Part shown: positions 6,408 through 62,079 of the stretch, piece by piece | How the letters are laid out: every line of letters begins with the position of its first letter | How positions within the stretch are numbered: position 1 is the first letter of the stretch | Source of the DNA: Escherichia phage FL04 | Sequence record: PP358550 | Strand: one strand, 5' to 3' | Length of the DNA stretch: 64,000 nucleotides | Program-made: the position numbers and the translations under genes | The notes under the pieces: model-generated | What the model saw: only the letters and a program-made list of their open reading frames with translations | Told to the model about the DNA's origin: nothing | Databases searched by the model: none

Positions 6408-6647
6408 ATGATGATTATTGATGAACTTGATAAACTGTTATGTTTAGATGCCATCGTAACATTCCATCGTGATAAAATTCACGCTGATTATGCACAACAT
6501 GTAATGTCTTTTCGACATAAAGTACAGTCGGTACAGGCGATGGAAAGTTTACTGATTAATGTTTGCAATTATCGGTCAACCAAATGCAATCTAGTGTTAG
6601 ATAAAAACGATCTGGAGTTATTCCGGCACATCGCGGAGGATATTTAA
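6408..6647 (+). CDS. hypothetical protein (79 aa)
   Basis: Tightly packed between upstream ORF and dexA. Confidence 0.5.
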   Translation: MMIIDELDKLLCLDAIVTFHRDKIHADYAQHVMSFRHKVQSVQAMESLLINVCNYRSTKCNLVLDKNDLELFRHIAEDI

Positions 6648-6648
6648 A

Positions 6649-7317
6649 ATGCTTCCAGTGGATTTAATGATTGACTTTGAAAGTTTAGGTTATCCGCCTG
6701 ATGGGGCGGTTATCAATATGGCGGCAATCGGATTTAAAGAAGATCCGCACAATCCACCTACATTTAAAGAACTGGTCGACAATTCCTTTCTGGTAAAATT
6801 TGATATTCCTTCCCAGAAAGGTGTAAGGGTGTTTGATCATGGTGTGGTTGAATGGTGGAAGAATACCGCCTCAGAAGGCATGAGAAAGCAATTAATCACA
6901 AATGGTACGGAAGTATCAACTAAAGAAGGTTTAGCGCGTTTTAACGCATTCTGTGAAGCCGTAGGAGTAGATCCGGTTAAATCCGTAATGTGGTCACGCG
7001 GTAATGCGTTTGATATTCCGTTACTAGTTGATATGATCCGCCGTGCACACAATACACGAGAGACGTTCAGCCTTGAACCTGTGCGATTCTGGAATATCCG
7101 AGATGTTCGCACCGCCATTGAGCGTACATTGATGCATCGCGGGATGTGTGAGTGTCCGTTACCAATGGGTACGCTAGATGGTTTTATCGCACATGATGCA
7201 ATTCATGATTGCGCTCGCGATATTCTTATGCTAATCTATGCACAACGTTATGCTATGGGTCTGGAAGACCTACCAGAAAATCCAGATCCAAATTCAGTTA
7301 AGAAACAAAGGGGATAA
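6649..7317 (+). CDS. dexA: exonuclease A (DexA, DnaQ-like 3-prime to 5-prime exonuclease)
   Basis: 222 aa; N-terminal DFESLG exonuclease motif, later HDAIHDC; T4 synteny (dda-dexA). Confidence 0.8.
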   Translation: MLPVDLMIDFESLGYPPDGAVINMAAIGFKEDPHNPPTFKELVDNSFLVKFDIPSQKGVRVFDHGVVEWWKNTASEGMRKQLITNGTEVSTKEGLARFNAFCEAVGVDPVKSVMWSRGNAFDIPLLVDMIRRAHNTRETFSLEPVRFWNIRDVRTAIERTLMHRGMCECPLPMGTLDGFIAHDAIHDCARDILMLIYAQRYAMGLEDLPENPDPNSVKKQRG

Positions 7318-24306: not shown

Positions 24307-27105
24307 TTAGAATTTAAAATATTTACTAATTTTGCGAGCAATTTTAGTAAAGAGAGGCGTTTTCAATTCTTTAATTTCTTCACTCATTTCCTGAATAGCC
24401 TTAATTAAAAGAGCATTCACAGCGGAGTTAGAAATTGTCAGAACATCAGATCCATCAACTTCAACTTTAGACACAGCTTCCGGTAATTCTTTTTCAAGAT
24501 CCTGAGCAATAATACCAACTTCGCGTTTAATCACGCTACGATCTTTAATAGACTTAACTTTATCGTAAGTATAAACTTTCAGTCGGCAAACTTTTTCGAC
24601 CGCTCCATATTCTAATTCTTCTTTATTAATCTTGAGACGGGAGTCAGAACGAATATACACATCGCTAAAGCTACCATTTCCTGGTGTATAAAAGAATCCA
24701 TCATGATGGAATTCAAATATAGCTTGTGGGTGTCCAGCATCAGGAGAAGCCTCCGTGGATCCGACGCGAATGATTGCTTGCCCCCACTGTGATGGAATAC
24801 GACGCATACCAAAGTCAACAGCGGTGCTATATCCTTGATTGGTTATAACGCTTCTTGCTTTAAGAATAGGATAATAACTATCTTGACCAACATAACCATG
24901 ATCAACGAATAATGGAGCTTCTACTCGCCATTGGTTGCCCCAATCACCCGGTTGTCTAGCAATCCATCCAGAACCGTTAATGTGTACACGGTCGCGGTTA
25001 ACGTTAACCATTAAGGTATTTTGCGGGTTTAACGCAATCTCACCATTGTTTGTTATATGTACTGCCGCCTGAGTAGCATAGCTATAAAATGCTAGCGAAT
25101 TATCAGCACCACCTTTACCAATATACCAGTTACCATTCCCGTCTACGTCACCGCGAATATGCAAAGCGTTGCTGGCTGTAGTCGATAATACAATAGCATC
25201 ACCCGGACGTTTAATAGTCAATCGACCAGTTGATTCAACTTCACCAAAGAATTTAGTTTTAATTGCACCAGTCGCTAAAGTACGTTCAGTGGAAAAATGA
25301 GCGCCTTTACTATCTTCTAACTGAATAATGTTATCACGAGCGTTATTGCTATCACCCCAATGATTAAACCGGAAATAATCGCGTGATTGCTTACCACCCG
25401 CTTCAAACGTCAGCGTACCTTTACTTAAATTAACATCACCGCTAAAGGTAGCAGCAAGAGAACCGCCTTTTAATACTAAAGCGTTAGCACCGCTAGTGCC
25501 ACCCAAAGTAACATCGCCAGTTTTTAATTGATAGCGGAAAGGTCTATTTGTATTAAAGTTTCCATCTTGATCATTTTCGTCGGTGGAAAGAATATAAAGA
25601 CTTTCACCATCATTACGGAAAATTGTGCCAAATTTACCGCCATACATACGGAATGCATTAGATGAGCGGAATTTAACTTCTGTTTTAAATGTGGTAGTGT
25701 TATTAAGGTTAACAGTAGAGTTAAAATTGGTAGGAGCACCGAAGTTAACAGCACCATTAAAATCTTGTTGAGCTGTCCATGTGTGGCGACCATCTTCAAG
25801 AACAACACGGCGGACTGTGTAAGTTCTATTTCCAGAATTACCGAACACACGAACGACAAAATAACGGTAGTTTGTCTGGGATACAGTACCGCGCCAAACC
25901 TGAACAGTACGCCCTGTGCTAGTGTGTTCACTAGGACCAACGGAAAACATAACCAGGTTTCCGTCAATCGTCCCCCAATCCATATTTGCTGGCATGTTCT
26001 TTATTTTGTTCAAAGGAACGCTAAACATACTACCAGGAACAAAATCAAAGGTTTGCCAATCTAACTCCGCTAATTGAGCTTTAATACCACCCATACCCAA
26101 AGTAATTGGAAGAGAATAAGATGTATATACTTCGTTCCATACACCCCACGCACCACCAGTATATGCACGCTCAAAAATACGATCGCGAGTAGTTGCACCC
26201 GTTCCGGCAGTAGTAAATTTTTGGAAAATAGCACCACCAGAAGCACGCTGTTTAACTTCCAGCAAACCAACAATAACGGCTGGTAAACCTTCACCAGTAG
26301 GACAGTTAATAACGGCATCAGTGCCTAAAATGTTATATAACCCAGGAGTTTTAAAATCATTCAGATCTCCATCATAGAAAGTCGCTGGTGTGCCATGACC
26401 AACCTGCTTCCATTCCTCCCACTTAGGTGCACTAGCATCCCATGCAGCAGCGAGACAACGAGTATAAACCATACCCATGCGGGTAGTATAACGCTGCGTT
26501 CTTGTGTAGAAACCACCTTCAAATATTTCTAAAAATCCTTGTGCGGCTGATCCTTCTTCTGGATAATGGCGATCAAATGATGCGATTGCGCTTGAACTGT
26601 TTCTCCATAAGCCACAATGTTCTAATTCTCCCAAGCTATCAAGGTCAATCGTTTGTGAAAGTGGACGAGTTGACGCTTGAACATTACGCCACACACCCCA
26701 TGGACCATCTACACCATTCCATTTCGCAGACAAAGAACGGATATAAACGTTACCAGACCGAACAGTATAACGCTGAGTGCCAGCAAATTGACCAGCCACA
26801 AATACTTCTAATACACCTACAGCATTCTCTTCTGGGAATTTATTTGCTGGCTGCGCATTTGTTGAAGTTGATTTAGACCAAACGCCAGTAAATTTACCAG
26901 TAGGTCCATAATTATCTAAATTTGCATCAGATGGCAACTCACCGCGAAAGTGTCCCAAAGTAATTACATTATTGCTGTCATCTTTTGTATATAGTTCTCG
27001 ATCCGCTAGGTTAATAGCAAGTTCACCCGGAGTTAGAATATTCGCATCCGGCTTGCGACCTGCCGTACTTGTTCTTTTAAATTGGATTCTCTGTAAATCT
27101 GCCAT
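24307..27105 (-). CDS. 37: long tail fibre distal subunit gp37 with C-terminal intramolecular chaperone (S74-like) domain
   Basis: 932 aa; N-terminus MADLQRIQFKRTSTAGRKPDANILTPGELAINLADRELYTKDD matches gp37; C-terminal SDVYIRS/DSRLKINKEE...AVNALLIKAIQEM resembles autoproteolytic chaperone domain. Confidence 0.88.
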   Translation of the reverse strand: MADLQRIQFKRTSTAGRKPDANILTPGELAINLADRELYTKDDSNNVITLGHFRGELPSDANLDNYGPTGKFTGVWSKSTSTNAQPANKFPEENAVGVLEVFVAGQFAGTQRYTVRSGNVYIRSLSAKWNGVDGPWGVWRNVQASTRPLSQTIDLDSLGELEHCGLWRNSSSAIASFDRHYPEEGSAAQGFLEIFEGGFYTRTQRYTTRMGMVYTRCLAAAWDASAPKWEEWKQVGHGTPATFYDGDLNDFKTPGLYNILGTDAVINCPTGEGLPAVIVGLLEVKQRASGGAIFQKFTTAGTGATTRDRIFERAYTGGAWGVWNEVYTSYSLPITLGMGGIKAQLAELDWQTFDFVPGSMFSVPLNKIKNMPANMDWGTIDGNLVMFSVGPSEHTSTGRTVQVWRGTVSQTNYRYFVVRVFGNSGNRTYTVRRVVLEDGRHTWTAQQDFNGAVNFGAPTNFNSTVNLNNTTTFKTEVKFRSSNAFRMYGGKFGTIFRNDGESLYILSTDENDQDGNFNTNRPFRYQLKTGDVTLGGTSGANALVLKGGSLAATFSGDVNLSKGTLTFEAGGKQSRDYFRFNHWGDSNNARDNIIQLEDSKGAHFSTERTLATGAIKTKFFGEVESTGRLTIKRPGDAIVLSTTASNALHIRGDVDGNGNWYIGKGGADNSLAFYSYATQAAVHITNNGEIALNPQNTLMVNVNRDRVHINGSGWIARQPGDWGNQWRVEAPLFVDHGYVGQDSYYPILKARSVITNQGYSTAVDFGMRRIPSQWGQAIIRVGSTEASPDAGHPQAIFEFHHDGFFYTPGNGSFSDVYIRSDSRLKINKEELEYGAVEKVCRLKVYTYDKVKSIKDRSVIKREVGIIAQDLEKELPEAVSKVEVDGSDVLTISNSAVNALLIKAIQEMSEEIKELKTPLFTKIARKISKYFKF

Positions 27106-27172: not shown

Positions 27173-28663
27173 TTAGAAAGTACCAAAATCAATTACCGCA
27201 TTAAGCGGAACAGCGCCAACATCATCAGGAGTTGGTTTGTGTCCTTCGTGGTATAATTCAAATGTATCGGTGTCCTGAGTATTGTTGCGTGATTTAACGA
27301 AAATAATTTTAGAATCATGTGTGATGCCTAGTTTCTCGTGCGCTTTAATATCACTAACACGATGAATCATTGCTGTGCCATCTAAGCTATTAAGTCCAGC
27401 GTAGCAATTATCACCATTATAGTTAGCTTTTGCGGTACGAACGCCGTTTGCCGCCGGAACAGTTAACGGTCCTGTCATGGTATCGCCAGTTACGTTAACA
27501 TAGCGAATATCAGCCAATTTACGGTGATCTACATAGTTCCATGCAGTCCATGATTCATTAGAACACGAACGCCAGCACATCGGATGGTCAATAGATTCAG
27601 GATAATACACCTGAACAATTCGACGAGTACCGACCGCATCTTCTGGGCGATATACCATCAAAACGCCGTTATAATAGCTATCAGACGGTTTATTAGTACC
27701 TGATCCAGCATTTTCCACACGATAGATACCGCGATTAATAAGAGTGTTCCAATCAACGTTTCCAATGATTGTTGGATTTGCTACCATTGATTTTTTCTCA
27801 AAGTAGCTCAAACGAACCAATTCATTCGGACCAGCAGGATCGTTTGTCGCCAACATTCTAGGCGCTTGCAAGTTACCTTCCATAATATCACCAGCACGTT
27901 TAACCTGTGCATCATTGGTGACATTACCTAGTCCAACATCGGCTTTAGTTGGTTTATTGTTGGTGTGATAAAAACGACCTTCTTTGCCATTAACAAAAAT
28001 GGTAGGCTCATCTTTGCTACGGAATACCAACGTATCAAGAACGTTACCATAATAGATCTTAGTCGCATCAAAATTAATTAAATCACGTTCCCTTGCAATT
28101 AATTTCGAATCAACCGATAGTTTAACAGTGACAGTGTTTAAATTATATGTTCCTGTGAGAGTATCACCGCGACGAGACACCAAATCTAAATCATTATTCG
28201 TTGGTTTATTAACAGGGCTATAGACGCGTTGACCTGTGTCTTTAATGGTTGTCCCTTCGATAGTCCCTTTAGACTTAAATTCGCCCGTTGTGGTGTCAAT
28301 ATACGCCATAATAACGCCATCACGGGCATTAACAAAGCCTATTGACTTCCATGAATGCAAACCCCAGCTTACGCCGTCAAAATTAGCAGCGTCGCTCTGA
28401 CCTTTAAAGATACCATTCTTTTTGGTTTCCCCAGCCGATGCGCTACCTACGCTTAAACCTTCCTCGAAATGAACTTGCTTTTGAAATGTGCCACCTTCGG
28501 ATGCACTAACAGCATCAAAATCGGTAGCCGAAGGTCTATCAAAAGCGGTATAGATTTTATGACCTTTGTAGAAAAGCTGATCCCCCGCTGGCTGGATCGT
28601 CAAGTTTCCTTGCGTCCAAATGGGAGATCCACCTACAGTAGATCCATATTTCAAATCTGCCAT
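27173..28663 (-). CDS. 36: long tail fibre hinge/distal connector gp36 (enlarged, 496 aa)
   Basis: N-terminus MADLKYGSTVGGSPIWTQGN...PAGD matches T4 gp36 N-terminus; C-terminal extension relative to T4 (221 aa). Confidence 0.8.
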   Translation of the reverse strand: MADLKYGSTVGGSPIWTQGNLTIQPAGDQLFYKGHKIYTAFDRPSATDFDAVSASEGGTFQKQVHFEEGLSVGSASAGETKKNGIFKGQSDAANFDGVSWGLHSWKSIGFVNARDGVIMAYIDTTTGEFKSKGTIEGTTIKDTGQRVYSPVNKPTNNDLDLVSRRGDTLTGTYNLNTVTVKLSVDSKLIARERDLINFDATKIYYGNVLDTLVFRSKDEPTIFVNGKEGRFYHTNNKPTKADVGLGNVTNDAQVKRAGDIMEGNLQAPRMLATNDPAGPNELVRLSYFEKKSMVANPTIIGNVDWNTLINRGIYRVENAGSGTNKPSDSYYNGVLMVYRPEDAVGTRRIVQVYYPESIDHPMCWRSCSNESWTAWNYVDHRKLADIRYVNVTGDTMTGPLTVPAANGVRTAKANYNGDNCYAGLNSLDGTAMIHRVSDIKAHEKLGITHDSKIIFVKSRNNTQDTDTFELYHEGHKPTPDDVGAVPLNAVIDFGTF

Positions 28664-30038: not shown

Positions 30039-33000
30039 TTAGTCTTCCCAGATAAAGTCTACGGTACGAGTCAGATTATTGGCGATGATTTTAACATTAC
30101 CAACTTTGATCCAATCACGAACCGTCATAGAGTTCATTAAACCACCTTCTGCAACTACTGCCCCGATTTCCTGAGCGGTAGGCTTATTCTGTTTGGTGTA
30201 AATTTCACCCCATGCGGTCCATTGACCACCAGTACCGGAACGGATATAATGTTTATGAGTACCATCAGGGGACCAAAGCTGGGTAAGCCCGTCCTCGTCA
30301 GTACCCCATTGCATCAGAGTACCGTTTTTCTTCTCTGGATAAGTTTCTTTGATGTTCTGGGTAGTAACTCGCATATTCCAGAAACCGATGTTACCGATTG
30401 CCGGAGCGGTTGCCGCGCTAGCTTCATGCTTAACAGAAACAATAGGCGCATTATCCATAGTCAGCTTACCGACCATTGTATCGCCAGCATTCTTAACAAA
30501 CTGACGGTTAAGAACTTCGTCAGCGTTTCCTGCGTGTACGATCTGATATTTCTGTCCGGAGATCTCTGTAGTTAACGTTTGAGAACCTGCCTTGATGTTA
30601 ACACTTCCACCGTGACCGATATTCAGCATACCATCTGGGGAACGAGTCATTGCCGGATTAGACTGGTCAACAATGTATAAACCGCCTTGTTTCGCATACA
30701 GGTTACGACCTGCAATAAAGTCTCTATATGCTGTCGCGTCGCCATTGTGTTCCATAGCAAAGGCGTAATGCTCGACGACTCCACCATCATTGATTTTACC
30801 GAAAGCAATAGCATCACTATCAACAACTTGCGCTGTTCCAGTACCACCAACGATAATAGACCAAGAGTTTTTCATGCCTTCCGATGCGGTTGTGCCATGC
30901 AGAGTAATTCCGGTGTGACCGTCAACTCCACGCTCCCCCAACACCAGATGACCATTACTCGGAACATCGGTCGAGTTCTTAGTCACAGACAGAGTTTCAA
31001 AGGAACCTGATTTTAAGCACTCTAAATCGCCCTTCACGTTAACGTTTTTATTAAACGTGTAATTGCTCTCTATGATCTGGTCAATGTCTCTACGCGCCCA
31101 TTTAGCGGCCTCTACGTTACCCAATTTCAAACTATTCTGAGCGGTTGCCATCTTAGGTAAGAAATTAGCAAGTGCGTAGTTTAATCCTTTCGGAGTTACC
31201 GCAATCCCGTCATGCTGGTAGTTTCCTAGCTCTTGAGTAGAACCTTGCAGATTATCACCAACAAAACAGTTTTCCTGAGTAGCAACTTTCAAGAAACCAC
31301 GACGCGCTTCGGTTGCTTTCCATGTATCCTCTGTCTGAACAACATATTTGAAGTTCTTCGGAGAAATTGCTACATTAGCCAGTGCACCAGCCACGGTTTC
31401 GGCTTGAGTACCAACTCGGATAATACCTTCTTTACCTTCGGTGGCCTTTTTGCCTTGCAGCTTTTTAGGAGTGATGATTGTAGTATCATCTTGACCAGCA
31501 TCCGTAAGCTGAGTAGTAGCAACTTTAGCGACACCTTTTGTGTCTTCGGTTGCATCCAGACCGCTGATCATGATACCTTGCCACAAATCACCAGTAAGGT
31601 TAAGCCCCTGAGTCGGATCTACTTTCAAACGCTGTGCATTCTCAAAGAAGGTTTTAATCTTCAATGGGGTAGAAATGCGAGCATCGTCACGACCTGCGTC
31701 AAATTCCGACTGAGTTGCAATTTCTGCTAAACCGTGTAAAGTTTCCGTAGCACGGCGAGTATGCAGTTTTTTAGGTGTGATAATATGGTTATCACTTTGG
31801 CCTAAGTTAGTTTCTTCCTGCGTAGCAATTTCAGCGATACCAGTACGGGATTCGGTAGCAGTACGCTTGGTTAACGTGCGAGTAGTGATCAGCAATGCAT
31901 CTTGCGGGGTTGATTCAGTAGCCCCTTGCACTTCCGCGTCAGTTGCCAGATACCCAACACCACGAGAAGTTTCAGTAGCTTTAACTTCGTTGATGTTTTG
32001 CGGAGTAACGATTTTAGCGTGGTCGTCGATGTTATAGATCCCTGTACCAGCTTCACCCCTTCGAGCGGCAGCATTACCGCCTACCTGAACAATTTCAGCG
32101 ATACCAGCAAGATCCTCGGACGCGCGACGTTCTTCTAACTTCTTAGGAGTGATTGCGCGGGTATCGTCTAAACCTTCGTTTGTTTCATGTTGAGTTGCAA
32201 TTTCCATCACACCACGACGGTCTTCGGTAGCAACACAGTCATTTAACTTTTTAGGTGTAACGATAACATCATCCAGGAAGCTGGAACCAGTATCTTGATG
32301 CGTTTCCGCTTGAGTTGCAATGCGAGCAATACCGCGTCGAGTTTCGTTGGCTGTTTTATTAGCCAGAACCTTTGGGGTCACCGCAACTTCGTCGCTAGGA
32401 TTATCTTCATGGTTTTTGTTTGTTTCATCCTGGGTAGCCAGTGCAATTACACCAACACGATCTTTACGAGTCGGATCTACTCGTTCTACAATCGGGTGAG
32501 CATGTGCCACCAACCAGTATTTCTTACCATCATCACCTTCTGAATAAGAGAACTCCAGATAAGGTACATAATCATTTGCAGCGTTGAAAGACAATTCAGA
32601 CACTCCAGTCCATGTATCGGTCCCATTGAATGGGTACTCGCTACGCTTAGGAAACTGAACCATGTTTTTCTGCATAAGGATTTTTGTATCCTCTTCTGAG
32701 GTAATGATTCGGCAAGTCTGGTTTCCGTGCATATACTGCATAGAAACTTGGATACGATCACCCGGCTCGACATTGGTCGGTAAAGTCAAGGTAACATCAC
32801 GATCACCAAATACTGCAACATAGCTATTAGGGGATAAGCGAGTATCACTAATGATAGGATTCAAGCGAACAGACTGATCGCCATCCCACAAACGCCATAA
32901 GTTTTCCGGTTTGTCAAAGATGAATACACCATGACCGCTACGCTTACCAACAATTTCTTTTACCCCGAAAGTACCGATCGATTGTTCTTGCGCACCTTCA

Positions 33001-33779
33001 TGTACTTTTACTGTAACATGGTTGGTTGCAGTCAATCCGTCAAGATCGGTAGTCTGGATCATATCACCGTTATTAGCAAACTTAGGAAGCATCAAAACAA
33101 TGTTACCTAAAGAACTACGACGGAATACCTGATCACCGTTTTGCATCTGAATCGGATCAATAGATGGCTGTGCATATACCCCGCGCGGCTCCGTTCCCGT
33201 CTGGTAAACGTGCCAGCGATTGCGAACAAAAATGAAGTAGTTCATTGCATAAGGGGTAGTACAATACCATTTGCGGTTGTTTACCACACCGTTATGATAG
33301 AACTCATGACCAGCCGCAAGGAACGATAACTCATTAACACCGCACTTGCCACCGATATCTTTTACTGTTATAGTGTCGCCCTCTGCCGGATTAGTAGGCA
33401 TTGAGAATGTCAAGTTTGCAAACTGACAGTCCGCTGCGATATAATCACCGGACTTTAAAGGAGTATCGCCGGAAGTTGCTGCAACATAATCCCAACGTGG
33501 GTCCGTGCGCAGTGCTTGCCATTTAGTCGGGTCAAAGTCACCTGCTGGTTTTGCGATATCTTCTTTTGCATAATACGGACGGTTTTGATAGATTGTAGTT
33601 CCGTATTGATCATAACCGCGAGTTGTGTCATACTGAGTAATACCATTATGGTAATTGAAAAATTCAACGTTGACCGCATCCGTTGATGTGTTTTTATCTG
33701 CGTATGCTACATTGACGACCTTTTCATTACCAGCGTCAAAGCCAAATGTGGCCTTGAAATGTTGAGAAAAATCTGCCAT
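30039..33779 (-). CDS. 34: long tail fibre proximal subunit gp34
   Basis: 1246 aa; N-terminus MADFSQHFKATFGFDAGNEKVVNVAYADKNTSTDAVNVEF resembles T4 gp34; internal repeats of type G(I/V)AxIATQxET. Confidence 0.88.
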   Translation of the reverse strand: MADFSQHFKATFGFDAGNEKVVNVAYADKNTSTDAVNVEFFNYHNGITQYDTTRGYDQYGTTIYQNRPYYAKEDIAKPAGDFDPTKWQALRTDPRWDYVAATSGDTPLKSGDYIAADCQFANLTFSMPTNPAEGDTITVKDIGGKCGVNELSFLAAGHEFYHNGVVNNRKWYCTTPYAMNYFIFVRNRWHVYQTGTEPRGVYAQPSIDPIQMQNGDQVFRRSSLGNIVLMLPKFANNGDMIQTTDLDGLTATNHVTVKVHEGAQEQSIGTFGVKEIVGKRSGHGVFIFDKPENLWRLWDGDQSVRLNPIISDTRLSPNSYVAVFGDRDVTLTLPTNVEPGDRIQVSMQYMHGNQTCRIITSEEDTKILMQKNMVQFPKRSEYPFNGTDTWTGVSELSFNAANDYVPYLEFSYSEGDDGKKYWLVAHAHPIVERVDPTRKDRVGVIALATQDETNKNHEDNPSDEVAVTPKVLANKTANETRRGIARIATQAETHQDTGSSFLDDVIVTPKKLNDCVATEDRRGVMEIATQHETNEGLDDTRAITPKKLEERRASEDLAGIAEIVQVGGNAAARRGEAGTGIYNIDDHAKIVTPQNINEVKATETSRGVGYLATDAEVQGATESTPQDALLITTRTLTKRTATESRTGIAEIATQEETNLGQSDNHIITPKKLHTRRATETLHGLAEIATQSEFDAGRDDARISTPLKIKTFFENAQRLKVDPTQGLNLTGDLWQGIMISGLDATEDTKGVAKVATTQLTDAGQDDTTIITPKKLQGKKATEGKEGIIRVGTQAETVAGALANVAISPKNFKYVVQTEDTWKATEARRGFLKVATQENCFVGDNLQGSTQELGNYQHDGIAVTPKGLNYALANFLPKMATAQNSLKLGNVEAAKWARRDIDQIIESNYTFNKNVNVKGDLECLKSGSFETLSVTKNSTDVPSNGHLVLGERGVDGHTGITLHGTTASEGMKNSWSIIVGGTGTAQVVDSDAIAFGKINDGGVVEHYAFAMEHNGDATAYRDFIAGRNLYAKQGGLYIVDQSNPAMTRSPDGMLNIGHGGSVNIKAGSQTLTTEISGQKYQIVHAGNADEVLNRQFVKNAGDTMVGKLTMDNAPIVSVKHEASAATAPAIGNIGFWNMRVTTQNIKETYPEKKNGTLMQWGTDEDGLTQLWSPDGTHKHYIRSGTGGQWTAWGEIYTKQNKPTAQEIGAVVAEGGLMNSMTVRDWIKVGNVKIIANNLTRTVDFIWED

Positions 33780-44473: not shown

Positions 44474-44642
44474 ATGACCAAATTAAAATGTGTTGCTGTA
44501 GATTTTTGAACTAGCTGATAGCTTTGTTGTTGGTGATGAATATGATGCTCGACATGATGGGACTTGCTACTACGTCGAGGATGAATATGGTGTAGAATGG
44601 GCGATTCTTCCTGATGATAAATGTTTTGAGGTTGTCGGATAA
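44474..44642 (+). pseudogene. small ORF disrupted by +1 frameshift at a T5 run (or programmed frameshift / sequence error)
   Basis: MTKLKCVAVDF-stop at 44507; continuing in +1 frame from 44508 gives ELADSFVVGDEYDARHDGTCYYVEDEYGVEWAILPDDKCFEVVG; joined product resembles paralogs at 17666 and 47020. Confidence 0.45.
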
Positions 44643-44815
44643 TGGCTACTGTATGGTTATTGATTGCAATCAGCAATTCAATGTATAATTACGGAAATAT
44701 GTCAAGCATTGAATTTGCAACAAAGCAGGATTGCGTTAAAGCTCGCGAGATTATCCGCGAAGACAATAAACGATTTATGAATCTATATTGCGTTGAAAAA
44801 CAAAAGGTGAACTAA
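44642..44815 (+). CDS. hypothetical small protein (57 aa), tandem paralog A
   Basis: MATVWLLIAISNS... ; ATG overlaps upstream stop; not in track. Confidence 0.45.
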   Translation: MATVWLLIAISNSMYNYGNMSSIEFATKQDCVKAREIIREDNKRFMNLYCVEKQKVN

Positions 44816-44982
44816 TGGCTACATTATGGTTATTGCTTTCCGTTAGCGTAGGAGTATATAATAAAGGAACTGTTACCAGCGTAGAGTTTTCATCATATCA
44901 AAATTGTTTTGAAGCTGTGCAGGAATTGCAGCAGGATAGCGAAATAAACAGAAATACTAAGTTCTTTTGTGTTAAAAAGTGA
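44815..44982 (+). CDS. hypothetical small protein (55 aa), tandem paralog B
   Basis: MATLWLLLSVSVG... similar to preceding ORF throughout; not in track. Confidence 0.45.
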   Translation: MATLWLLLSVSVGVYNKGTVTSVEFSSYQNCFEAVQELQQDSEINRNTKFFCVKK

Positions 44983-56942: not shown

Positions 56943-57110
56943 ATGTTCGAGACTAAAGCAGCATGTGAAGCATATATCATTGAAACCCACGGCGAAGATT
57001 ATCTGAAATTTGACATTGTAGTAGCACAGAAGATTGTAGGGATGGTTGCGAAATACCTCGGAGTTAAAGAAGGTTACTATCCTAGCAACGCACCAGAAAT
57101 TAACAAATAA
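56943..57110 (+). CDS. hypothetical small protein (55 aa)
   Basis: AGGAGAATCAAAATG. Confidence 0.5.
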   Translation: MFETKAACEAYIIETHGEDYLKFDIVVAQKIVGMVAKYLGVKEGYYPSNAPEINK

Positions 57111-57124
57111 TTTTATAAAAAGTG

Positions 57125-57153
57125 TTGACAGGGGAGGATAACTCCCCTACAAT
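57125..57153 (+). promoter_or_regulatory. PeSL-type early promoter with palindromic spacer
   Basis: TTGACA-GGGGAGGATAACTCCCC-TACAAT; heads a six-gene operon. Confidence 0.65.
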
Positions 57154-57193
57154 ACAACCATCAAGACTAGATACCACTTAGGAGAATCAAACA

Positions 57194-57445
57194 ATGGCTA
57201 ACATCGAAACCGCAAAGAAAATCGCTAAAGACCTGAACGTTAAAGGCTTCCGTAAACTGAAATTACAGCGTGTACGCTACACCATCGGCAAACAGTGCTC
57301 TTTCATGAGCGAAGAAGTTGCTAACAGCCTCATTGATAACCTGATTGCGGCTGGCTGGGAAGTTGCGGATCTGAAAACTTGCCGCGAACTGGCTAACAAA
57401 GGTCTTTTAGATTCTGTTACTATCAAACCAATGGGGGCAGCGTGA
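57194..57445 (+). CDS. hypothetical protein (83 aa)
   Basis: First 16 nt of the ORF (ATGGCTAACATCGAAA) identical to ORF at 59748. Confidence 0.6.
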   Translation: MANIETAKKIAKDLNVKGFRKLKLQRVRYTIGKQCSFMSEEVANSLIDNLIAAGWEVADLKTCRELANKGLLDSVTIKPMGAA

Positions 57446-57687
57446 AAAGAAAATTAATTAAACGCAATAAGGAATTTCTTAATAACTGCATTAAGGCCGC
57501 TAATGGTTGGCCTTTGTGCCTCTTCCTTTATGATTGGTATTCTAAACAATCGGCTGAGGAAGCACGACACTATAAGAAGATCAGAAAAGAATCATATACA
57601 AAACAAGGCCGCATTAATGGACTTTACTTAATGTGGCACGGCAAAGAACCTTCTAAAATCTGTGTTGGATTAAAGGGGCGTATATGA
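57442..57687 (+). CDS. hypothetical protein (81 aa, GTG start)
   Basis: GTG overlapping upstream stop; stop overlaps next ATG. Confidence 0.5.
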   Translation: MKRKLIKRNKEFLNNCIKAANGWPLCLFLYDWYSKQSAEEARHYKKIRKESYTKQGRINGLYLMWHGKEPSKICVGLKGRI

Positions 57688-58400
57688 AACAAAAATTAAT
57701 ATTCTGTAACTTTGACGGATCGGGGATAATGGGGCTAGAATGGGCTAAAGCAGGTCATAAGGTAGTCTGCTTTAATGCGGATGACGCCGACCACGGTACA
57801 TACAAAAAGTATAATACCAGATTTGAACACCCAAACATTACCTATGTAAACACATGGATTGATTTGAACTGGCTAGAAAGAGCAATGGACCTTGAATGGG
57901 GGAAACCGGATATTATCTTTGCATTCCCACCGTGCACCAATTTAGCTGTTAGTGGCGCTGCACACTTTGAACGAAAGAAACGAGAACAAGGACCATTGAT
58001 TCAAGTTCATGATGTAAGGGCAGCTAAAATAACCGCTTATTTGGGTGAATGGCTAGGAGTTCCCTACATGATAGAGAATCCTGTAAGCGTTATCTCTAGC
58101 ATGTGGCGTAAGCCTGATTACATGTTCCACCCGTGGGAATATGGCGGTTATTTGCCGGAAGATGATAAACATCCTACTTTTCCTGAGTATATCGCCGCCC
58201 GTGATATGTACCCGAAAAAGACTTGCTTATGGACCGGACAAGGCTTTATAATGCCAGAAAAGAAACCGTTGCAGATTAATAAAGGGTACAGTAAACAGCA
58301 TTCTAAGCTAGGCGGGAAAGGAACGAAAACAAAGACTATCAGGTCACTTACCCCGCGAGGATTCGCAAAGGCAGTATTTGAAGCAAATAAGGATCTATGA
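57684..58400 (+). CDS. C5-cytosine methyltransferase-like protein (minimal catalytic core, no obvious target-recognition domain)
   Basis: 238 aa; motif I-like FCNFDGSGIMGLEWAKAGHKVVCFNADD, motif IV-like IIFAFPPCTNLAVSGAA (Pro-Cys), motif VI-like YMIENPVS; no recognisable motif VIII/TRD. Confidence 0.6.
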   Translation: MKQKLIFCNFDGSGIMGLEWAKAGHKVVCFNADDADHGTYKKYNTRFEHPNITYVNTWIDLNWLERAMDLEWGKPDIIFAFPPCTNLAVSGAAHFERKKREQGPLIQVHDVRAAKITAYLGEWLGVPYMIENPVSVISSMWRKPDYMFHPWEYGGYLPEDDKHPTFPEYIAARDMYPKKTCLWTGQGFIMPEKKPLQINKGYSKQHSKLGGKGTKTKTIRSLTPRGFAKAVFEANKDL

Positions 58401-58735
58401 TGAGATTGTTTAAGTATTCGCTAACGTCAAATTACGATAAACAAGGTCATTGCATCCGTTGCCCTGATTGTCATAGCCATAACATCGAAAGCAAGATCAC
58501 CGATCATATTGATGGACTTTGGTCGCCAGCAAGTGAAATAGAATACTATTGCGCTGATTGTGGAATTGTAGTAGCATATTGGGCATACGGATCATATGAT
58601 CCATACTTCCAGATGGGAGAACGTTCAATCCCTGCGCTTATCTGGAGAATTAAGAACAATATCCGCTATTCATGGGATGAGTTCTTAAAAGATATTGATT
58701 TACGTGATGATCCATTCAGGAGAACTATATTATGA
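58397..58735 (+). CDS. zinc-ribbon protein (112 aa)
   Basis: CIRCPDCHSH ... CADCG; start overlaps upstream stop (ATGA). Confidence 0.55.
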   Translation: MMRLFKYSLTSNYDKQGHCIRCPDCHSHNIESKITDHIDGLWSPASEIEYYCADCGIVVAYWAYGSYDPYFQMGERSIPALIWRIKNNIRYSWDEFLKDIDLRDDPFRRTIL

Positions 58736-58910
58736 TAACACCACAACTACACGGTAAAGAGATTTGCGATCTTACTTGGGAAGAGTTGGTCATGTATCGC
58801 GACACCTACAAATGGTTTGAATCCATGAAAGAATTTGTAGCAGCAGTACGAGAAGAAATGAGCATTCGCCAGTATGCGGACGCATATATTGAAAAGGTAA
58901 GCACACTATG
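58731..58910 (+). CDS. hypothetical small protein (59 aa)
   Basis: Overlapping start/stop with neighbours; not in track. Confidence 0.4.
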
Positions 58911-59426
58911 AACCGTTTAACGCCTAAACGCCGTTACTATACCAATACTAAAAACTTTGTCATCTCTGTTTATGAGGCGTGGTTAGAAGATGGCTTTATC
59001 AACATGAACCCAGATTATCAGCGTCCTTTGGTATGGGACACCGAAAACAAACGTATGTTTATCGAAAACCTGATTAATGATTTTCCGGTTGGTGCTATCG
59101 CAATGGCTAAGATTGATGATGGCTCTCGCTATGAGATCGAAATCGTGGACGGTAAACAGCGTTTAAACGCAATATTCTCCTTCATGAAGGATGAGTTTAG
59201 CATTGCTGGTAATGATGATTCTATGTTGTATTACAGTGATTTTACGCCAGCAGAAAAGCGACGTTTCCGAAATCTCGGACTACCCGCGATCATGATGGAA
59301 GAGAGCACACGAGAAGACCGATTAGAGTATTTCTACAAAACAAACTTTTTCGGTGTGCCTCAATCGGAAGAACATCGCCAGCATGTGATTGCCCTATTGC
59401 AAGATGAGCAATTAAAAAATAACTAA
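58908..59426 (+). CDS. stand-alone DUF262 / ParB-like (GmrS N-terminal type) domain protein
   Basis: 172 aa; DYQRPLVW and VDGKQRLNAIF (DGQQR-like) motifs; start overlaps upstream stop. Confidence 0.6.
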   Translation: MNRLTPKRRYYTNTKNFVISVYEAWLEDGFINMNPDYQRPLVWDTENKRMFIENLINDFPVGAIAMAKIDDGSRYEIEIVDGKQRLNAIFSFMKDEFSIAGNDDSMLYYSDFTPAEKRRFRNLGLPAIMMEESTREDRLEYFYKTNFFGVPQSEEHRQHVIALLQDEQLKNN

Positions 59427-59496: not shown

Positions 59497-59676
59497 ATGA
59501 AACACTTAACCATCGAATCGGCAATCATCGCAATCGCTAAAGTTCAAGCGGCTTATAATTGCACTGACATTGAAGCCATTTCAAAAATGCAAGCAGAAGC
59601 AGCAAAAGCGGGTGACGAGAAATCTTTAGATGTTCTCTGCGAAATCAAAGCAGAATTGATTTCAAAAATGTTCTAA
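59497..59676 (+). CDS. hypothetical small protein (59 aa)
   Basis: AGGAGAATCAAACATG. Confidence 0.5.
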   Translation: MKHLTIESAIIAIAKVQAAYNCTDIEAISKMQAEAAKAGDEKSLDVLCEIKAELISKMF

Positions 59677-59682
59677 AAGTTG

Positions 59683-59717
59683 TTGACATAACAGAGGGTG
59701 TATATCATAATACACCC
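59683..59717 (+). promoter_or_regulatory. PeSL-type early promoter (hairpin GGGTGTA/TACACCC around -10)
   Basis: TTGACA-17-CATAAT. Confidence 0.65.
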
Positions 59718-59747
59718 ATACCGAAACGAACTACTAAGGAGTATCAA

Positions 59748-59960
59748 ATGGCTAACATCGAAATCATCATTACCGACGTAACTTATGACCGCATTAACGA
59801 AATCGGTACTGCATTACTGGAAGATGGAACAACTCGTACCATCAACTACGCAGAATACGTTGAAATGCGCGGTTGTATTAAACGAGTAGGAAAATATATC
59901 CTGATTGAAAAAGACTATTCAGGATACACCTTAGAGCAATTGCTCGATGGTGCATTATAA
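59748..59960 (+). CDS. hypothetical protein (70 aa)
   Basis: Starts MANIE like ORF 57194; followed by terminator. Confidence 0.6.
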   Translation: MANIEIIITDVTYDRINEIGTALLEDGTTRTINYAEYVEMRGCIKRVGKYILIEKDYSGYTLEQLLDGAL

Positions 59961-59965
59961 TAAAT

Positions 59966-59987
59966 GGGGGCGTTAAGCCCCTTTTTC
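59966..59987 (+). terminator. rho-independent terminator
   Basis: GGGGC-GTTAA-GCCCC hairpin plus TTTTT. Confidence 0.7.
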
Positions 59988-60027: not shown

Positions 60028-62079
60028 ATGTTTAACTTAGAAATCGACGATCTAATGATTGAATCTTTCGAGAAATGGCTGTTGACGGAAGAGGAAGAAA
60101 ACTTTGGCAGTATTGCTCCGGTACAGTGCTTAAAGCCTAAGCAGAATCCTAAACAGCTTTTTGCAGTACAGACACGCGATAAAGATGTGATTGTCCGTCT
60201 TTGTAACTTCACCAACAAAACACCTAAAATCATTCGTATGGGTGACAAGACCGCACATGTTGTACTGTGCGAAATGAACAAAAGCGGTCGTATTGTACAG
60301 CTTAAAAATGGTCTAGGCGATAACCCGATTGCAGTTATGTCAAGTGCTTTTGATGTGGTTATGGAAACAGCCCGTAAAGCGCAATTAGACGCTGTTATGT
60401 TCCGTTTTAACGTATCCCGCATGAAAGGTAAGACCGAACTGGTTAAGCGCGTTATAGAGCGTTTGGTGCGTCGTACACCGAAGTTTGAAGTATTCCAGCA
60501 GGAAGTAATGACCAGCAAAAAGATCGCTTTAGTTGTTGTCAAGCGTCGCGGGATGGCGATTGATAAGATTAAAGGGATTAAACTTGATGAATCCTTGTTC
60601 ACTAAAGTAGAAAGTGATTTAGGTGATCGCTGGGTATCTAAGGCTACTGGTGAATCTCTGACTAAAGATGAGGCATATGCGGCTAGTCTTGTGTCAGAAG
60701 AAGAACGAAACGCGGAAGCAGAACAACGAGTAGCGGCTAAATCTCGTTTGACTAAAGAAGAAATGCTGAAAACTCAAGCGACCTATAACAGCGACTATGT
60801 GAATCATCCAGAAAAAATTAATCTTAAACCGGAAGAAGATATCACCGAAGCAGAACCTAAGAAACAGTTTAATACTCTGATTGACCGTCAAGCCTTAGAA
60901 CGTTCAACCGCTCGTTCTCTGAATGACTGGACAAGTGATATTATCACTCGCTATGGTTTCATGCGTACTATTTTTGAAAGCGAAGCCGATGCAAAATACG
61001 CAGTAAGCGAACTGGTAAAAGTTCAGGATCAATATGATCCATTGTCTGCGGAAGTTATCGCAGCATCAATCAAACGCTTAAAAGAAATCATGAGCGAGGA
61101 AGTATTCGAAAACAAGATCACCGCCCTGGCAATGGATCGAGTAGACCAGTCTATGCCAGCAGATGTAAAAGCTGAAATGCTGCGTAGTCACATCACCCAG
61201 ATTAAAACCGATGCCCTACGTAATGTTGCTTCCGGTATGTTTGAAGCAATTGCTAGCAACATGGGTGAAATGATGGCAGATATTGATCTTGATCTGCCGG
61301 GCGCGGAAGGTTTTGTGTTGAGCGAATATGCCGATGCAGCATACATCAATATGAACAACTTCCTAACCGACCGTAAGCTGGAAGAGTTTGAAGGCATCGC
61401 AGATCCAGAAGAATTGGTCAAGATGTGCGATGCATTGGATAATGCCTTCTCCAACTATGGCGTTAAACTTGATCCGGGTACTATTCTGTATCGTGGTATG
61501 GACTTCCGGTCGCAAATGTGGGAAACTGCACGTAAGCAAAAAGCGTTTTACTTTAAAAACTATGTGAGCACTTCCCTTGCACCTAACATTTTTGGCGGCT
61601 GGAATGCAAACGTGGCTAGTGCCGTTGCTGGTGTTGATTCTATGGCTGGCTCTCGCGGTGAAGGTGGCGCTAATGTTGCTTTCTCCATTGCTGGCGCGGA
61701 AAACATCCCTGTATTGCCAGTAGGTAACAAAGCATTTGCTTACAAAGAATGCGAGATTTTACTTCCTCGCGGTGTTGTGTTATCCTTTGATACGGTAACT
61801 CGTGCTACGGCATCGACGGATTCACAAGAAACTTATTACATTGAGGCACATATTATGAACAAAAATGAACTGGCAGCATTACAAGAATCTGGCGAGATGA
61901 TCGCGGACGGTGATGCATTCATCCGTGAAGGTGTTATTAAACCTGCTTCTGACCTGTCTTTCTCCAGCTTCATTAGCGAAGCTAAAACCGAACGTAAGAA
62001 AGCAGATAAGGCAACTCTACGTCAGCTTATCGCTGATCTGGTATCTGTAGACGCAATGCCAGATAAATTTAAAATGTAA
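60028..62079 (+). CDS. alt: ADP-ribosyltransferase Alt
   Basis: 683 aa (T4 Alt 682 aa); C-terminal catalytic region with R (LYRGM), STS (YVSTSL) and ExE (KECEILLPRG) motifs. Confidence 0.8.
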   Translation: MFNLEIDDLMIESFEKWLLTEEEENFGSIAPVQCLKPKQNPKQLFAVQTRDKDVIVRLCNFTNKTPKIIRMGDKTAHVVLCEMNKSGRIVQLKNGLGDNPIAVMSSAFDVVMETARKAQLDAVMFRFNVSRMKGKTELVKRVIERLVRRTPKFEVFQQEVMTSKKIALVVVKRRGMAIDKIKGIKLDESLFTKVESDLGDRWVSKATGESLTKDEAYAASLVSEEERNAEAEQRVAAKSRLTKEEMLKTQATYNSDYVNHPEKINLKPEEDITEAEPKKQFNTLIDRQALERSTARSLNDWTSDIITRYGFMRTIFESEADAKYAVSELVKVQDQYDPLSAEVIAASIKRLKEIMSEEVFENKITALAMDRVDQSMPADVKAEMLRSHITQIKTDALRNVASGMFEAIASNMGEMMADIDLDLPGAEGFVLSEYADAAYINMNNFLTDRKLEEFEGIADPEELVKMCDALDNAFSNYGVKLDPGTILYRGMDFRSQMWETARKQKAFYFKNYVSTSLAPNIFGGWNANVASAVAGVDSMAGSRGEGGANVAFSIAGAENIPVLPVGNKAFAYKECEILLPRGVVLSFDTVTRATASTDSQETYYIEAHIMNKNELAALQESGEMIADGDAFIREGVIKPASDLSFSSFISEAKTERKKADKATLRQLIADLVSVDAMPDKFKM

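What the first reader, a model, noticed from the sequence alone, without database searches (positions are those of the whole stretch)
59683..59765. Promoter cassette conservation extends into the coding sequence: two unrelated ORFs share their first five codons
The ORFs at 57194 and 59748 both begin ATGGCTAACATCGAAA (MANIE), directly after near-identical leader sequences, and then diverge completely. This suggests the mobile promoter cassette carries the translation start and first codons, and that downstream genes were acquired by recombination within the first codons.
Basis: seen in the sequence. Interest (0 to 1): 0.4.

Follow-up and report, generated by a model that had tools for sequence, protein, structure and literature searches.

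The report
Two phage genes share five codons
Two unrelated small early genes of an RB49-type coliphage, each behind a known mobile promoter cassette (PeSL), begin with the same 16 bases; this is real and unlikely to be chance, but it is a one-off local copying event and not a property of the cassette.

Summary
The window is a Krischvirus (RB49-like T4-type coliphage). The "promoter cassettes" are the published PeSLs (promoter-early stem-loops, Arbiol et al. 2010). The two ORFs are RB49 ORF190 (57194) and ORF185 (59748).

In detail: ATGGCTAACATCGAAA is exact at both starts, and the proteins are otherwise unrelated. It is rare under shuffling, at 0.7% of window shuffles, 1.5% genome-wide and 0.05% among PeSL-driven genes. 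The leaders, however, are not near-identical: they are about 70% alike, with a 3-nt indel at the ATG.

- Across 41 PeSL-driven genes, conservation stops at the ATG.
- ORF190's NIE codons are ancestral to its own family, since diverged orthologues start MNIEAAKK and MLTIETAKK. No cassette brought them.
- ORF185's MANIE is Krischvirus-specific; its closest outgroup starts MVTSKK.
- Natural PeSL exchanges at this locus (MIZ4, ECD7-like, SFHK24) cross over in the leader, not in the codons.

The best reading is that a short patch of ORF190's native 5' end was copied onto ORF185, by micro-conversion, template switching or in-frame capture. A second such pair (MAIIT) in a related metagenomic phage supports this. 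Coincidence remains possible, at about 25%. Interest is low to moderate.

The parts
57105..57124 (+). AT-rich upstream part of PeSL191/190, including the stop codon of the upstream ORF (RB49 ORF191, window 56943-57110)
   Evidence: Sequence read. PeSL anatomy as defined in PMC2839356.
57125..57153 (+). Sigma-70 promoter of PeSL191/190: -35 TTGACA (57125-57130), 17-nt spacer, -10 TACAAT (57148-57153). The spacer holds the stem-loop GGGGAG-GATAA-CTCCCC (57131-57147).
   Evidence: 11/12 match to consensus; fold -19.4 kcal/mol, z=-4.8.
57154..57193 (+). Leader of ORF190 with SD AGGAG (57180-57184). GGAGAATCAAA matches 10 of 11 positions of the T4 RegB/S1 strong-site consensus GGAGRAYARAA.
   Evidence: Consensus quoted from PMC3014915. 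The same leader, GATACCACTTAGGAGAATCAAACAATGGC, precedes ORF194 in kaaroe.
57194..57209 (+). Shared 16-mer ATGGCTAACATCGAAA (MANIE plus 1 nt), copy 1. It is native to the ORF190 family.
   Evidence: Orthologues in L036, L037, L038 and L040.
57194..57445 (+). ORF190 homologue (83 aa, phrog_14908, function unknown)
59663..59682 (+). AT-rich upstream part of PeSL186/185, including the stop codon of ORF186 (59674-59676)
   Evidence: repeat family D1.
59683..59717 (+). Sigma-70 promoter of PeSL186/185: -35 TTGACA (59683-59688), 17-nt spacer, -10 CATAAT (59706-59711). The stem-loop GGGTGTAT-ATCATA-ATACACCC (59696-59717) overlaps the -10 box.
   Evidence: -13.6 kcal/mol, z=-3.4. This PeSL sub-class, with the stem over the -10 box, is described in PMC2839356.
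59718..59747 (+). Leader of ORF185 with SD AAGGAG (59736-59741). It differs from the ORF190 leader by an indel and mismatches.
59748..59763 (+). Shared 16-mer ATGGCTAACATCGAAA, copy 2. It is lineage-specific within the ORF185 family.
   Evidence: Outgroups.
59748..59960 (+). ORF185 homologue (70 aa, phrog_10679/VOG7339, function unknown). Homologues occur in Drexlerviridae, Seuratvirus and an unclassified element.
59966..59982 (+). Intrinsic-terminator-like hairpin that closes the PeSL-ORF array before alt (60028-62079)
   Evidence: alt annotation.

Best explanation
The region holds two ordinary PeSL cassettes of an RB49-type phage, each driving a small early ORFan. A PeSL consists of a strong sigma-70 early promoter, a terminator/attenuator stem-loop, and an SD that also resembles a RegB site.

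The shared first five codons do not belong to the cassette. They are the native 5' end of ORF190. Most likely they were copied once, before the Krischvirus radiation, onto the 5' end of ORF185, a gene imported from the siphovirus/other-element gene pool.

The copying would have been a short-patch event between two imperfect direct repeats 2.5 kb apart (PeSL 3' end + ATG + an 'MA..'-type start). Three routes are possible:
- ectopic templated synthesis or template switching;
- heteroduplex repair during T4-type recombination-dependent replication;
- an in-frame illegitimate join when the gene was captured next to a copy of the ORF190 start.

Later PeSL-PeSL exchanges reshuffled the leader upstream and left a 16-17-nt island of identity.

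Shown: the identity; its rarity; the PeSL anatomy; the ancestry of ORF190's codons; the lineage-specificity of ORF185's codons; and PeSL exchange at this locus.

Inferred: that copying occurred, its direction, and the molecular route.
For: 1. Rarity of a 13-nt prefix. Zero of 11,100 unrelated pairs exceed 8 nt in 62 other T4-like loci.
2. ORF190 family orthologues lie in syntenic ligase-to-alt regions. They keep AAC ATC GAA (L036, 73% aa identity) and ATC GAA AC (L037, 60%) at the start.
3. ORF185's closest outgroup, P0016 (56% identity), reads MVTSKK|IIIDVTYDRINEIGTA against MANIEI|IITDVTYDRINEIGTA. That is 5/12 nt identity after the ATG, followed by 36/45 over the next 15 codons. The diverged RB49-like relatives L038 and L040 lack ORF185 altogether.
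4. An independent second case exists in L038. Two unrelated neighbouring ORFs (5909, 6525; BLASTP finds nothing) share ATGGCAATCATCAC. Their kaaroe orthologues start ATGGCATACATT and ATGGCACTGACT. The L038 family-98 start therefore differs by a 3-nt insertion plus substitutions, all of which bring it to the neighbour's sequence. The expected number of such pairs in those loci is about 0.001-0.01.
5. PeSLs at this exact locus do recombine: the hybrid PeSL and deletion in MIZ4, and the swapped promoter half in ECD7-like genomes. PeSL191/190 forms mini-circles experimentally (PMC2839356).
6. Templated mutagenesis from imperfect direct repeats is documented in T4 (Schultz & Drake 2008, Genetics 178:661). 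I saw this only as a reference; its content is from my own knowledge.
Against: - No intermediate ORF185 homologue (60-95% identity) exists to show the pre-copy start. The N-terminal tail of that family varies in length and sequence anyway, and other 15-nt windows of the ORF185/P0016 alignment are equally divergent. The 'sharp break' therefore carries little weight on its own.
- The identity is not contiguous with the leader (3-nt indel, SD mismatch), so an extra step of later leader exchange or indel is needed.
- All observed natural crossovers are in leaders, none in codons.
- The empirical tail of shared prefixes in this genome is heavier than in shuffles (pairs of 10, 10 and 9 nt). Genome-wide chance could therefore be as high as about 0.1.
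- Both the PeSL restriction and the second example were evaluated post hoc.
Confidence: 0.48

Rival explanations
1. Coincidence. Two unrelated genes happen to start M-A-N-I-E with the same, mostly preferred, codons. N-terminal residue preferences (Ala at position 2) and codon bias in highly expressed early genes make this more likely.
For: - The genome-wide shuffle gives P=0.015, and tail extrapolation from the observed 8-10-nt pairs gives up to about 0.1.
- AACATCGAAA occurs 5 times in the window, against 0.34 expected, because AAC/ATC/GAA are common codons. A third in-frame TAACATCGAAA lies at 58480.
- Both families natively carry an x-I-(E/K) pattern near the start: MLTIE and MNIE in one, MTIKT and CTIKT in the other.
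- Exact MANIE 16-mers start several unrelated phage genes in IMG/VR.
- A first-stage scan of many windows will surface events of about 1% probability.
Against: - Identical codons given identical residues have a probability of only about 0.04 with this genome's usage.
- P is about 5e-4 within the PeSL-driven set.
- No pair exceeds 8 nt among 11,100 unrelated pairs in other T4-like loci.
- A second case of the same kind (11 nt) turned up in the only diverged RB49-like contigs examined.
Confidence: 0.27
2. The mobile cassette itself includes the ATG and the first about five codons, and both downstream genes were acquired by recombination inside those codons.
For: - PeSLs are mobile and recombinogenic (PMC2839356).
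- The homology of PeSL195/194 and PeSL191/190 runs through the ATG to +5 (ATGGC).
- ORF185's start is lineage-specific.
Against: - ORF190's codons are vertically inherited within its family.
- PeSL-driven genes as a class show no excess identity after the ATG.
- Only this one pair in a near-complete genome shares more than 10 nt.
- IMG/VR holds no third Krischvirus gene family starting with the 16-mer.
- Natural and experimentally mapped crossovers lie between the -10 box and the ATG.
Confidence: 0.07
3. Convergent or shared function of the 5' segment. The 17-nt RNA around the AUG would be a common translational operator or enhancer (for example a target of the phage RegA-type repressor). Alternatively, the MANIE peptide would be a common N-terminal signal, by analogy with the capsid-targeting leader of T-even internal proteins.
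For: - Both initiation regions are predicted to be less structured than shuffles (z=+1.1 and +1.2).
- The phage encodes RegA and RegB homologues.
- RegA operators overlap the AUG (PMC3014915).
- The 16-mer is invariant in every Krischvirus locus I read.
- Unrelated T-even internal proteins share only an N-terminal leader (PMC3012670).
Against: - The segment is not A+U-rich like known RegA operators.
- MANIE is 5 aa and lacks the (L/I)-x-E protease motif that, from my own knowledge, ends the T4 leader.
- Only two genes carry it.
- Both are driven by early sigma-70 promoters, which fits poorly with virion packaging.
- Selection on function rarely fixes 13 consecutive identical nucleotides, synonymous sites included.
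Confidence: 0.1

Closest known systems
PeSL (promoter-early stem-loop) cassettes of RB49/phi1-type phages (Arbiol, Comeau, Kutateladze, Adamia & Krisch 2010, Genome Biol Evol 2:140, PMC2839356; Comeau et al. 2014, PMC4122927)
   Same: - The anatomy is identical: upstream stop codon in an AT-rich tract, consensus -35/-10, GC-rich stem-loop between the boxes or over the -10 box, then the SD and ATG of an ORFan.
- The genome type and hyperplastic region are the same.
- The cassette at 57125 is the published PeSL191/190.
- Natural variants at this locus show PeSL-PeSL exchange.
   Different: - The published element ends at the ATG.
- The 13 further identical bases shared by ORF185 and ORF190 are not mentioned in that paper (text search).
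- By my analysis they are not a general part of the element.
T-even internal-protein (IP) loci: diverse unrelated proteins that share only a conserved N-terminal capsid-targeting sequence behind conserved early regulatory elements (PMC3012670; Repoila et al. 1994 as discussed in PMC2839356)
   Same: Unrelated ORFs in a plastic locus lie behind repeated regulatory cassettes and share their first codons.
   Different: - The IP leader is about 10 aa, is shared by many proteins, is functional (scaffold targeting) and is removed by the prohead protease.
- Here only 5 aa are shared, by two proteins only.
- There is no protease motif, and expression is from early promoters only.
Templated mutagenesis or ectopic micro-conversion between imperfect direct repeats in phage T4 (Schultz & Drake 2008, Genetics 178:661; seen as a reference, content from my own knowledge)
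   Same: A short patch of about 14-17 nt becomes identical to a nearby imperfect repeat. The flanks remain different. The phage has T4-type replication and recombination.
   Different: That work reports laboratory mutations within a single gene. Here the event is inferred from evolution, lies between the 5' ends of two different genes, and has not been observed directly.

Membership tests
PeSL cassette | Sigma-70 consensus -35 and -10 hexamers with a spacing of about 17 nt | tested here: met
   TTGACA-17-TACAAT at 57125-57153 and TTGACA-17-CATAAT at 59683-59711, each matching 11 of 12 positions.
PeSL cassette | [quoted passage not shown] | tested here: met
   - 57131-57147: 6-bp G/C stem between the boxes, -19.4 kcal/mol, z=-4.8.
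- 59696-59717: 8-bp stem over the -10 box, -13.6 kcal/mol, z=-3.4.
PeSL cassette | AT-rich upstream tract containing the upstream gene's stop codon; SD and ATG of a downstream ORFan at the 3' end | tested here: met
   Read directly. ORFs listed. Both downstream genes are annotated as hypothetical proteins in all records.
PeSL cassette | Member of a repeated family concentrated in hyperplastic regions of an RB49-type genome | tested here: met
   Repeat families D1-D8. About 18-22 cassettes in the window. The window matches Krischvirus genomes at 94-99% identity.
PeSL cassette | Acts as a site of homologous exchange (deletion, replacement, mini-circles) | tested here: met
   - MIZ4 lacks the ORF186-191 block and carries a hybrid PeSL in front of ORF185.
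- ECD7-like and SFHK24 genomes carry other upstream halves.
- There is experimental evidence for PeSL191/190 in RB49.
PeSL cassette | Promoter and terminator activity in vivo | not testable with these tools
   This needs reporter assays. The paper tested other PeSLs (193/192, 206/205, 211/210).
IP-type N-terminal capsid-targeting leader | A leader of about 10 residues shared by many unrelated proteins of the locus | tested here: not met
   Only two proteins share it, and only 5 residues. No other start in a near-complete genome shares more than 10 nt.
IP-type N-terminal capsid-targeting leader | The leader ends in the prohead-protease motif (L/I)-x-E (my own knowledge of T4 gp21 sites) | tested here: not met
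   In M-A-N-I-E the Ile lies directly before the Glu, not two residues before it.
IP-type N-terminal capsid-targeting leader | The protein is packaged in the virion | not testable with these tools
   This needs virion proteomics.
Templated patch or micro-conversion between imperfect repeats | Several simultaneous changes, including indels, that all convert the recipient to the donor sequence | tested here: inconclusive
   - L038 family-98 start versus its kaaroe orthologue: a 3-nt insertion plus substitutions give identity to the neighbour.
- For ORF185, only an outgroup at 56% identity is available.
Templated patch or micro-conversion between imperfect repeats | Donor sequence demonstrably older than the recipient patch | tested here: met
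   ORF190's AAC ATC GAA is present in diverged orthologues. ORF185's MANIE is absent from all outgroups.

The most novel reading that the evidence does not exclude
In PeSL-dense hyperplastic regions of RB49-type phages, recombination-dependent replication occasionally copies the first 4-5 codons of one ORFan onto an unrelated neighbour, or fuses an incoming foreign gene in frame to a resident start. The modular 'linker' then functionally reaches into the coding sequence and creates chimeric N-termini. This would be a small-scale, previously undescribed route of 5'-end shuffling that helps foreign genes acquire a working initiation region.
Probability: 0.35. Interest if true: 0.45.

Novelty: already known. 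Interest (0 to 1): 0.27.

Why it matters
The cassettes themselves are textbook PeSLs, so nothing new is gained there. If the shared codons do record a copying event, PeSL-mediated shuffling is not perfectly 'clean' at the ATG, and homologous linkers can drag or overwrite the first codons of cargo genes. That bears on how orphan genes captured from other phages obtain efficient translation starts. It also bears on how reliable N-terminal residues are for homology and annotation in hyperplastic regions. The effect is small, because only two cases were found, and it has no demonstrated functional consequence.

Tried and rejected
1. Hidden paralogy of the two ORFs. Rejected: BLASTP finds no alignment, the PHROG families differ, and the homologue sets and taxonomic ranges differ.
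2. General extension of PeSL conservation into coding sequence. The window alone hinted at it (p=0.03, focal pair included). It vanished with 41 PeSL genes genome-wide (p=0.37).
3. A third gene family with the same start. An IMG/VR scan for the 16-mer found only the same two Krischvirus genes. All other hits are unrelated genes or internal sites.
4. Natural recombinants joined inside the 16-mer. Chimeric queries (190 leader + 185 body, and the reverse) found no full-length match in 58 Krischvirus genomes.
5. Origin of the codons from a PeSL leader motif. CATCGAAAC follows the -10 box in 5 leaders and also sits in ORF190 codons 3-6. However, the similarity of these coding-sequence starts to leaders ranks only 3rd and 8th of 260, so I did not pursue it.
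6. The third in-frame TAACATCGAAA at 58480 (HNIES in the ORF188 homologue). The homologous position in L039 reads DID, so I treat it as coincidence.
7. Capsid-targeting leader analogy. The motif and the length do not fit.
8. Anchoring more RB49-like hyperplastic regions with the HNH protein in IMG/VR. This returned mainly unrelated siphovirus HNH genes. The ligase anchor gave diverse T4-like loci, which served as a null set.
9. L038 and L040 have no close relative in the phage collection, so their full genomes could not be examined.

Full report
**What the region is.**
The window matches Krischvirus genomes (RB49, phi1, JSE, kaaroe and others) at 94-99% identity. The segment 55.3-60.0 kb is the hyperplastic region between DNA ligase and alt. 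It is an array of small ORFs of unknown function, most of them preceded by a roughly 90-bp repeat.

The repeat has these parts:
- an AT-rich tract holding the upstream stop codon;
- TTGACA, a 17-18-nt spacer, and TATAAT;
- a G/C-rich stem-loop;
- a leader (..CATACCGAAACGAAC.. or ..CATCGAAAC..);
- the SD GGAG(A/T)ATCAA, followed by the ATG.

This is the PeSL (promoter-early stem-loop) described for RB49 and phi1 by Arbiol et al. 2010 (PMC2839356). [quoted passage not shown]

In RB49 numbering:
- the ORF at 57194 is ORF190;
- the ORF at 59748 is ORF185;
- the cassette at 57125 is PeSL191/190.

The finding's coordinates (59683-59765) cover PeSL186/185 and the first six codons of ORF185. This is the PeSL sub-class whose stem (59696-59717) overlaps the -10 box.

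**Checking the observation.**
ATGGCTAACATCGAAA is exact at 57194 and at 59748, and occurs nowhere else in the window even with two mismatches. The proteins are unrelated beyond it.

Rarity of the 13 shared nucleotides after the ATG:

| Reference set | Result |
|---|---|
| 94 gene starts in the window | Longest prefix; next best 9 nt; 0.7% of codon-column shuffles reach it |
| 18 PeSL-driven starts | 0.05% of shuffles; analytic expectation 1.5e-4 |
| 249 starts, near-complete genome (window plus the rest of kaaroe) | Still the top pair; runners-up 10, 10 and 9 nt; shuffle P=0.015 |
| 62 other T4-like ligase loci (0.88 Mb, 11,100 unrelated within-locus pairs) | Maximum is 8 nt |

The real tail in this genome is heavier than the shuffled one, and extrapolating it gives up to about 0.1 genome-wide.

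So the identity is more than the start codon and ribosome-binding site, and it is unlikely, though not impossible, by chance.

The statement that the leaders are 'near-identical' is wrong. They are two different PeSL sub-types, with a 3-nt indel immediately before the ATG and a mismatch in the SD.

**Does the cassette carry first codons?**
No, not as a rule. For 41 PeSL-driven genes, mean column identity is 0.47 at -10..-1 and drops to 0.29 at +4..+9. It cannot be distinguished from that of 205 other genes (permutation p=0.37 with one focal gene removed). No other unrelated pair in the genome shares more than 10 nt. IMG/VR contains no third Krischvirus gene family with this start.

**Whose codons are they?**
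ORF190 has orthologues in syntenic ligase-to-alt regions of more distant, uncultured RB49-like phages.

| Locus | aa identity to ORF190 | 5' end | N-terminus |
|---|---|---|---|
| L036 | 73% | ccacttaggagaatcaaat ATG AAC ATC GAA GCA GCA AAG | MNIEAAKK |
| L037 | 60% | ATG TTA ACT ATC GAA ACA GCA AAA | MLTIETAKK |
| L038 | | ATG AAA GTA GAT GCA GCA AAG | MKVDAAKK |
| L040 | | ATG TTA AAC GCT GCT AAG | MLNAAKK |

AAC-ATC-GAA-A therefore belongs to the ORF190 gene lineage.

ORF185 is different:
- It is absent from L038 and L040.
- Its homologues sit in Drexlerviridae, Seuratvirus and an unclassified element.
- They begin MAIKVTKKETK.., MLKCTIKTIR.., MTIKTIV.. and, for the closest one at 56% identity, MVTSKK.
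- After that start, 15 of the next 16 residues are identical to ORF185.

MANIE is thus specific to the Krischvirus copy of ORF185. If one start is a copy of the other, the direction is ORF190 to ORF185.

The caveat is that the N-terminal tail of that family is variable anyway. Other 15-nt windows of the same alignment are just as divergent.

**Recombination at the locus.**
- In MIZ4 the whole ORF186-191 block is missing. ORF185 is preceded by a hybrid PeSL whose promoter half is that of the ORF191-type cassette and whose leader half is ORF185's own.
- ECD7-like genomes carry the same hybrid without the deletion.
- SFHK24 has yet another upstream half and a slightly different leader.
- In every case the crossover lies upstream of the SD, as in the published mini-circles.
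- Searches with artificial chimeras found no genome in which the two genes had recombined through the 16-mer.
- The homology of PeSL195/194 and PeSL191/190 in kaaroe runs through the ATG to +5 (..GATACCACTTAGGAGAATCAAACAATGGC). Homology tracts therefore need not end exactly at the start codon.

**A second example.**
In L038, two unrelated neighbouring ORFs (5909-6196 and 6525-6797; no BLASTP hit) both begin ATGGCAATCATCAC (MAIIT), again behind dissimilar leaders. Their kaaroe orthologues begin ATGGCATACATTACT (MAYIT) and ATGGCACTGACTAAA (MALTK). The L038 start of the second family thus differs by a 3-nt insertion and several substitutions, all of which make it identical to its neighbour. The expected number of prefixes of 11 nt or more among the roughly 400 within-locus pairs of L036, L038 and L040 is about 0.001-0.01, depending on the null. 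This was found without pre-selection, and it is the main reason I rank copying above coincidence.

**Mechanism (inferred).**
PeSL-ORF junctions are imperfect direct repeats a few hundred to a few thousand bases apart, in a phage whose replication is recombination-driven. Three routes would each leave a 14-17-nt island of identity that starts near the ATG:
- a nascent strand or a heteroduplex that pairs in the conserved SD-ATG region of the wrong cassette and is extended or repaired for a few codons before returning;
- templated mutagenesis or micro-conversion;
- an in-frame illegitimate join during capture of the foreign gene.

The outgroup start ATGGTAACT.. already resembles ATGGCTAAC.. (ATGG and TAAC, offset by one base). 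That resemblance could have seeded mispairing, but this is only suggestive. Subsequent leader exchange and small indels, both documented above, would explain why identity is not continuous upstream.

The conserved leader itself has functional reasons to be conserved up to the ATG. It holds the SD, and GGAGAATCAAA matches 10 of 11 positions of the T4 RegB/S1 strong-site consensus GGAGRAYARAA. Both initiation regions are predicted to be unstructured.

**Rivals.**
- Coincidence (about 0.27) is kept alive by the heavier empirical tail, by codon and N-terminal biases, by the native x-I-(E/K) pattern in both families, and by the fact that a broad first-stage scan will surface rare events.
- A shared function of the RNA segment or of the peptide (about 0.1) cannot be excluded, but it lacks the features of RegA operators or of the T-even capsid-targeting leader.

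**Comparison and verdict.**
The elements are members of the PeSL family, and all sequence-testable defining features are met. In fact they are the published ones. The shared five codons are not mentioned in the 2010 paper. They are best seen as a scar of local copying, not as part of the cassette. Nothing indicates a new kind of system. Interest is low to moderate.

Noticed in passing
L038:5909-6196 and L038:6525-6797 (ENA metagenome contig, RB49-like phage): A second pair of unrelated neighbouring ORFs shares its start, ATGGCAATCATCAC (MAIIT). Their kaaroe orthologues start MAYIT and MALTK. No close relative of this phage is in the phage collection.
   Followed up: partly
window 24307-27105, 27173-28663 and 30039-33779 (all minus strand): Three large genes that look like long tail-fibre genes all begin ATGGCAGATTT (MADL/MADF), sharing 8 nt after the ATG. 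My BLAST clustering did not group them into one family.
   Followed up: no
window 57181-57191, and the SD of most PeSLs (for example 55769, 56932, 59486): The conserved PeSL SD-spacer GGAGAATCAAA matches 10 of 11 positions of the T4 RegB/S1 strong cleavage consensus GGAGRAYARAA (PMC3014915). PeSL-driven early mRNAs may be built-in RegB targets. kaaroe annotates site-specific RNA endonuclease genes.
   Followed up: partly
L040:5016-5060 versus window 57215-57259: A roughly 45-nt block of the ORF190 family (AAGAAAATCGCTAAAGACCTGAACGTTAAAGGCTTCCGTAAACTG) is 98% identical between phages whose proteins are only about 63% identical. Codons 9-16 match at 24 of 24 nt. This is either a mosaic patch or nucleotide-level constraint.
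   Followed up: partly
L041:5900-7010 (Logan/ENA contigs of 17-42 kb; no match in the phage collection): The element carrying the closest outgroup of ORF185 has its own repeated promoter cassettes in front of small ORFs (caggggTTGACCCTAAGT.CT.ACCTATGTA.TATA.GCATCAAC ... AGGAGA). It also carries three OMP beta-barrel genes and a serine recombinase. The cassette architecture resembles PeSLs but lies outside T4-like phages.
   Followed up: partly
window 57684-58400 and 58908-59426: A Dcm-type cytosine methyltransferase gene and a GmrSD_N (DUF262) domain ORF sit together between the two PeSL-ORF modules. L036 keeps the GmrSD_N ORF in the same position.
   Followed up: no
L020 (ECD7-like IMG/VR contig), leader of the ORF185 orthologue: The SD is AATGAG instead of AAGGAG. 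The promoter half is a different PeSL, with the stem GGGATCggtgATCCC between the boxes. This is a natural weakened-SD variant of the same gene.
   Followed up: no
window 58480-58490: A third in-frame TAACATCGAAA (..H-N-I-E-S..) lies inside the zinc-ribbon ORF, between the two MANIE genes. AACATCGAAA occurs 5 times in the window against 0.34 expected. I judged this to be codon-usage coincidence.
   Followed up: yes
window 44642-44815 and 44815-44982: Two adjacent small hydrophobic ORFs begin MATVWLLIAI and MATLWLLLSV. This looks like a tandem duplication of a small membrane protein gene.
   Followed up: no
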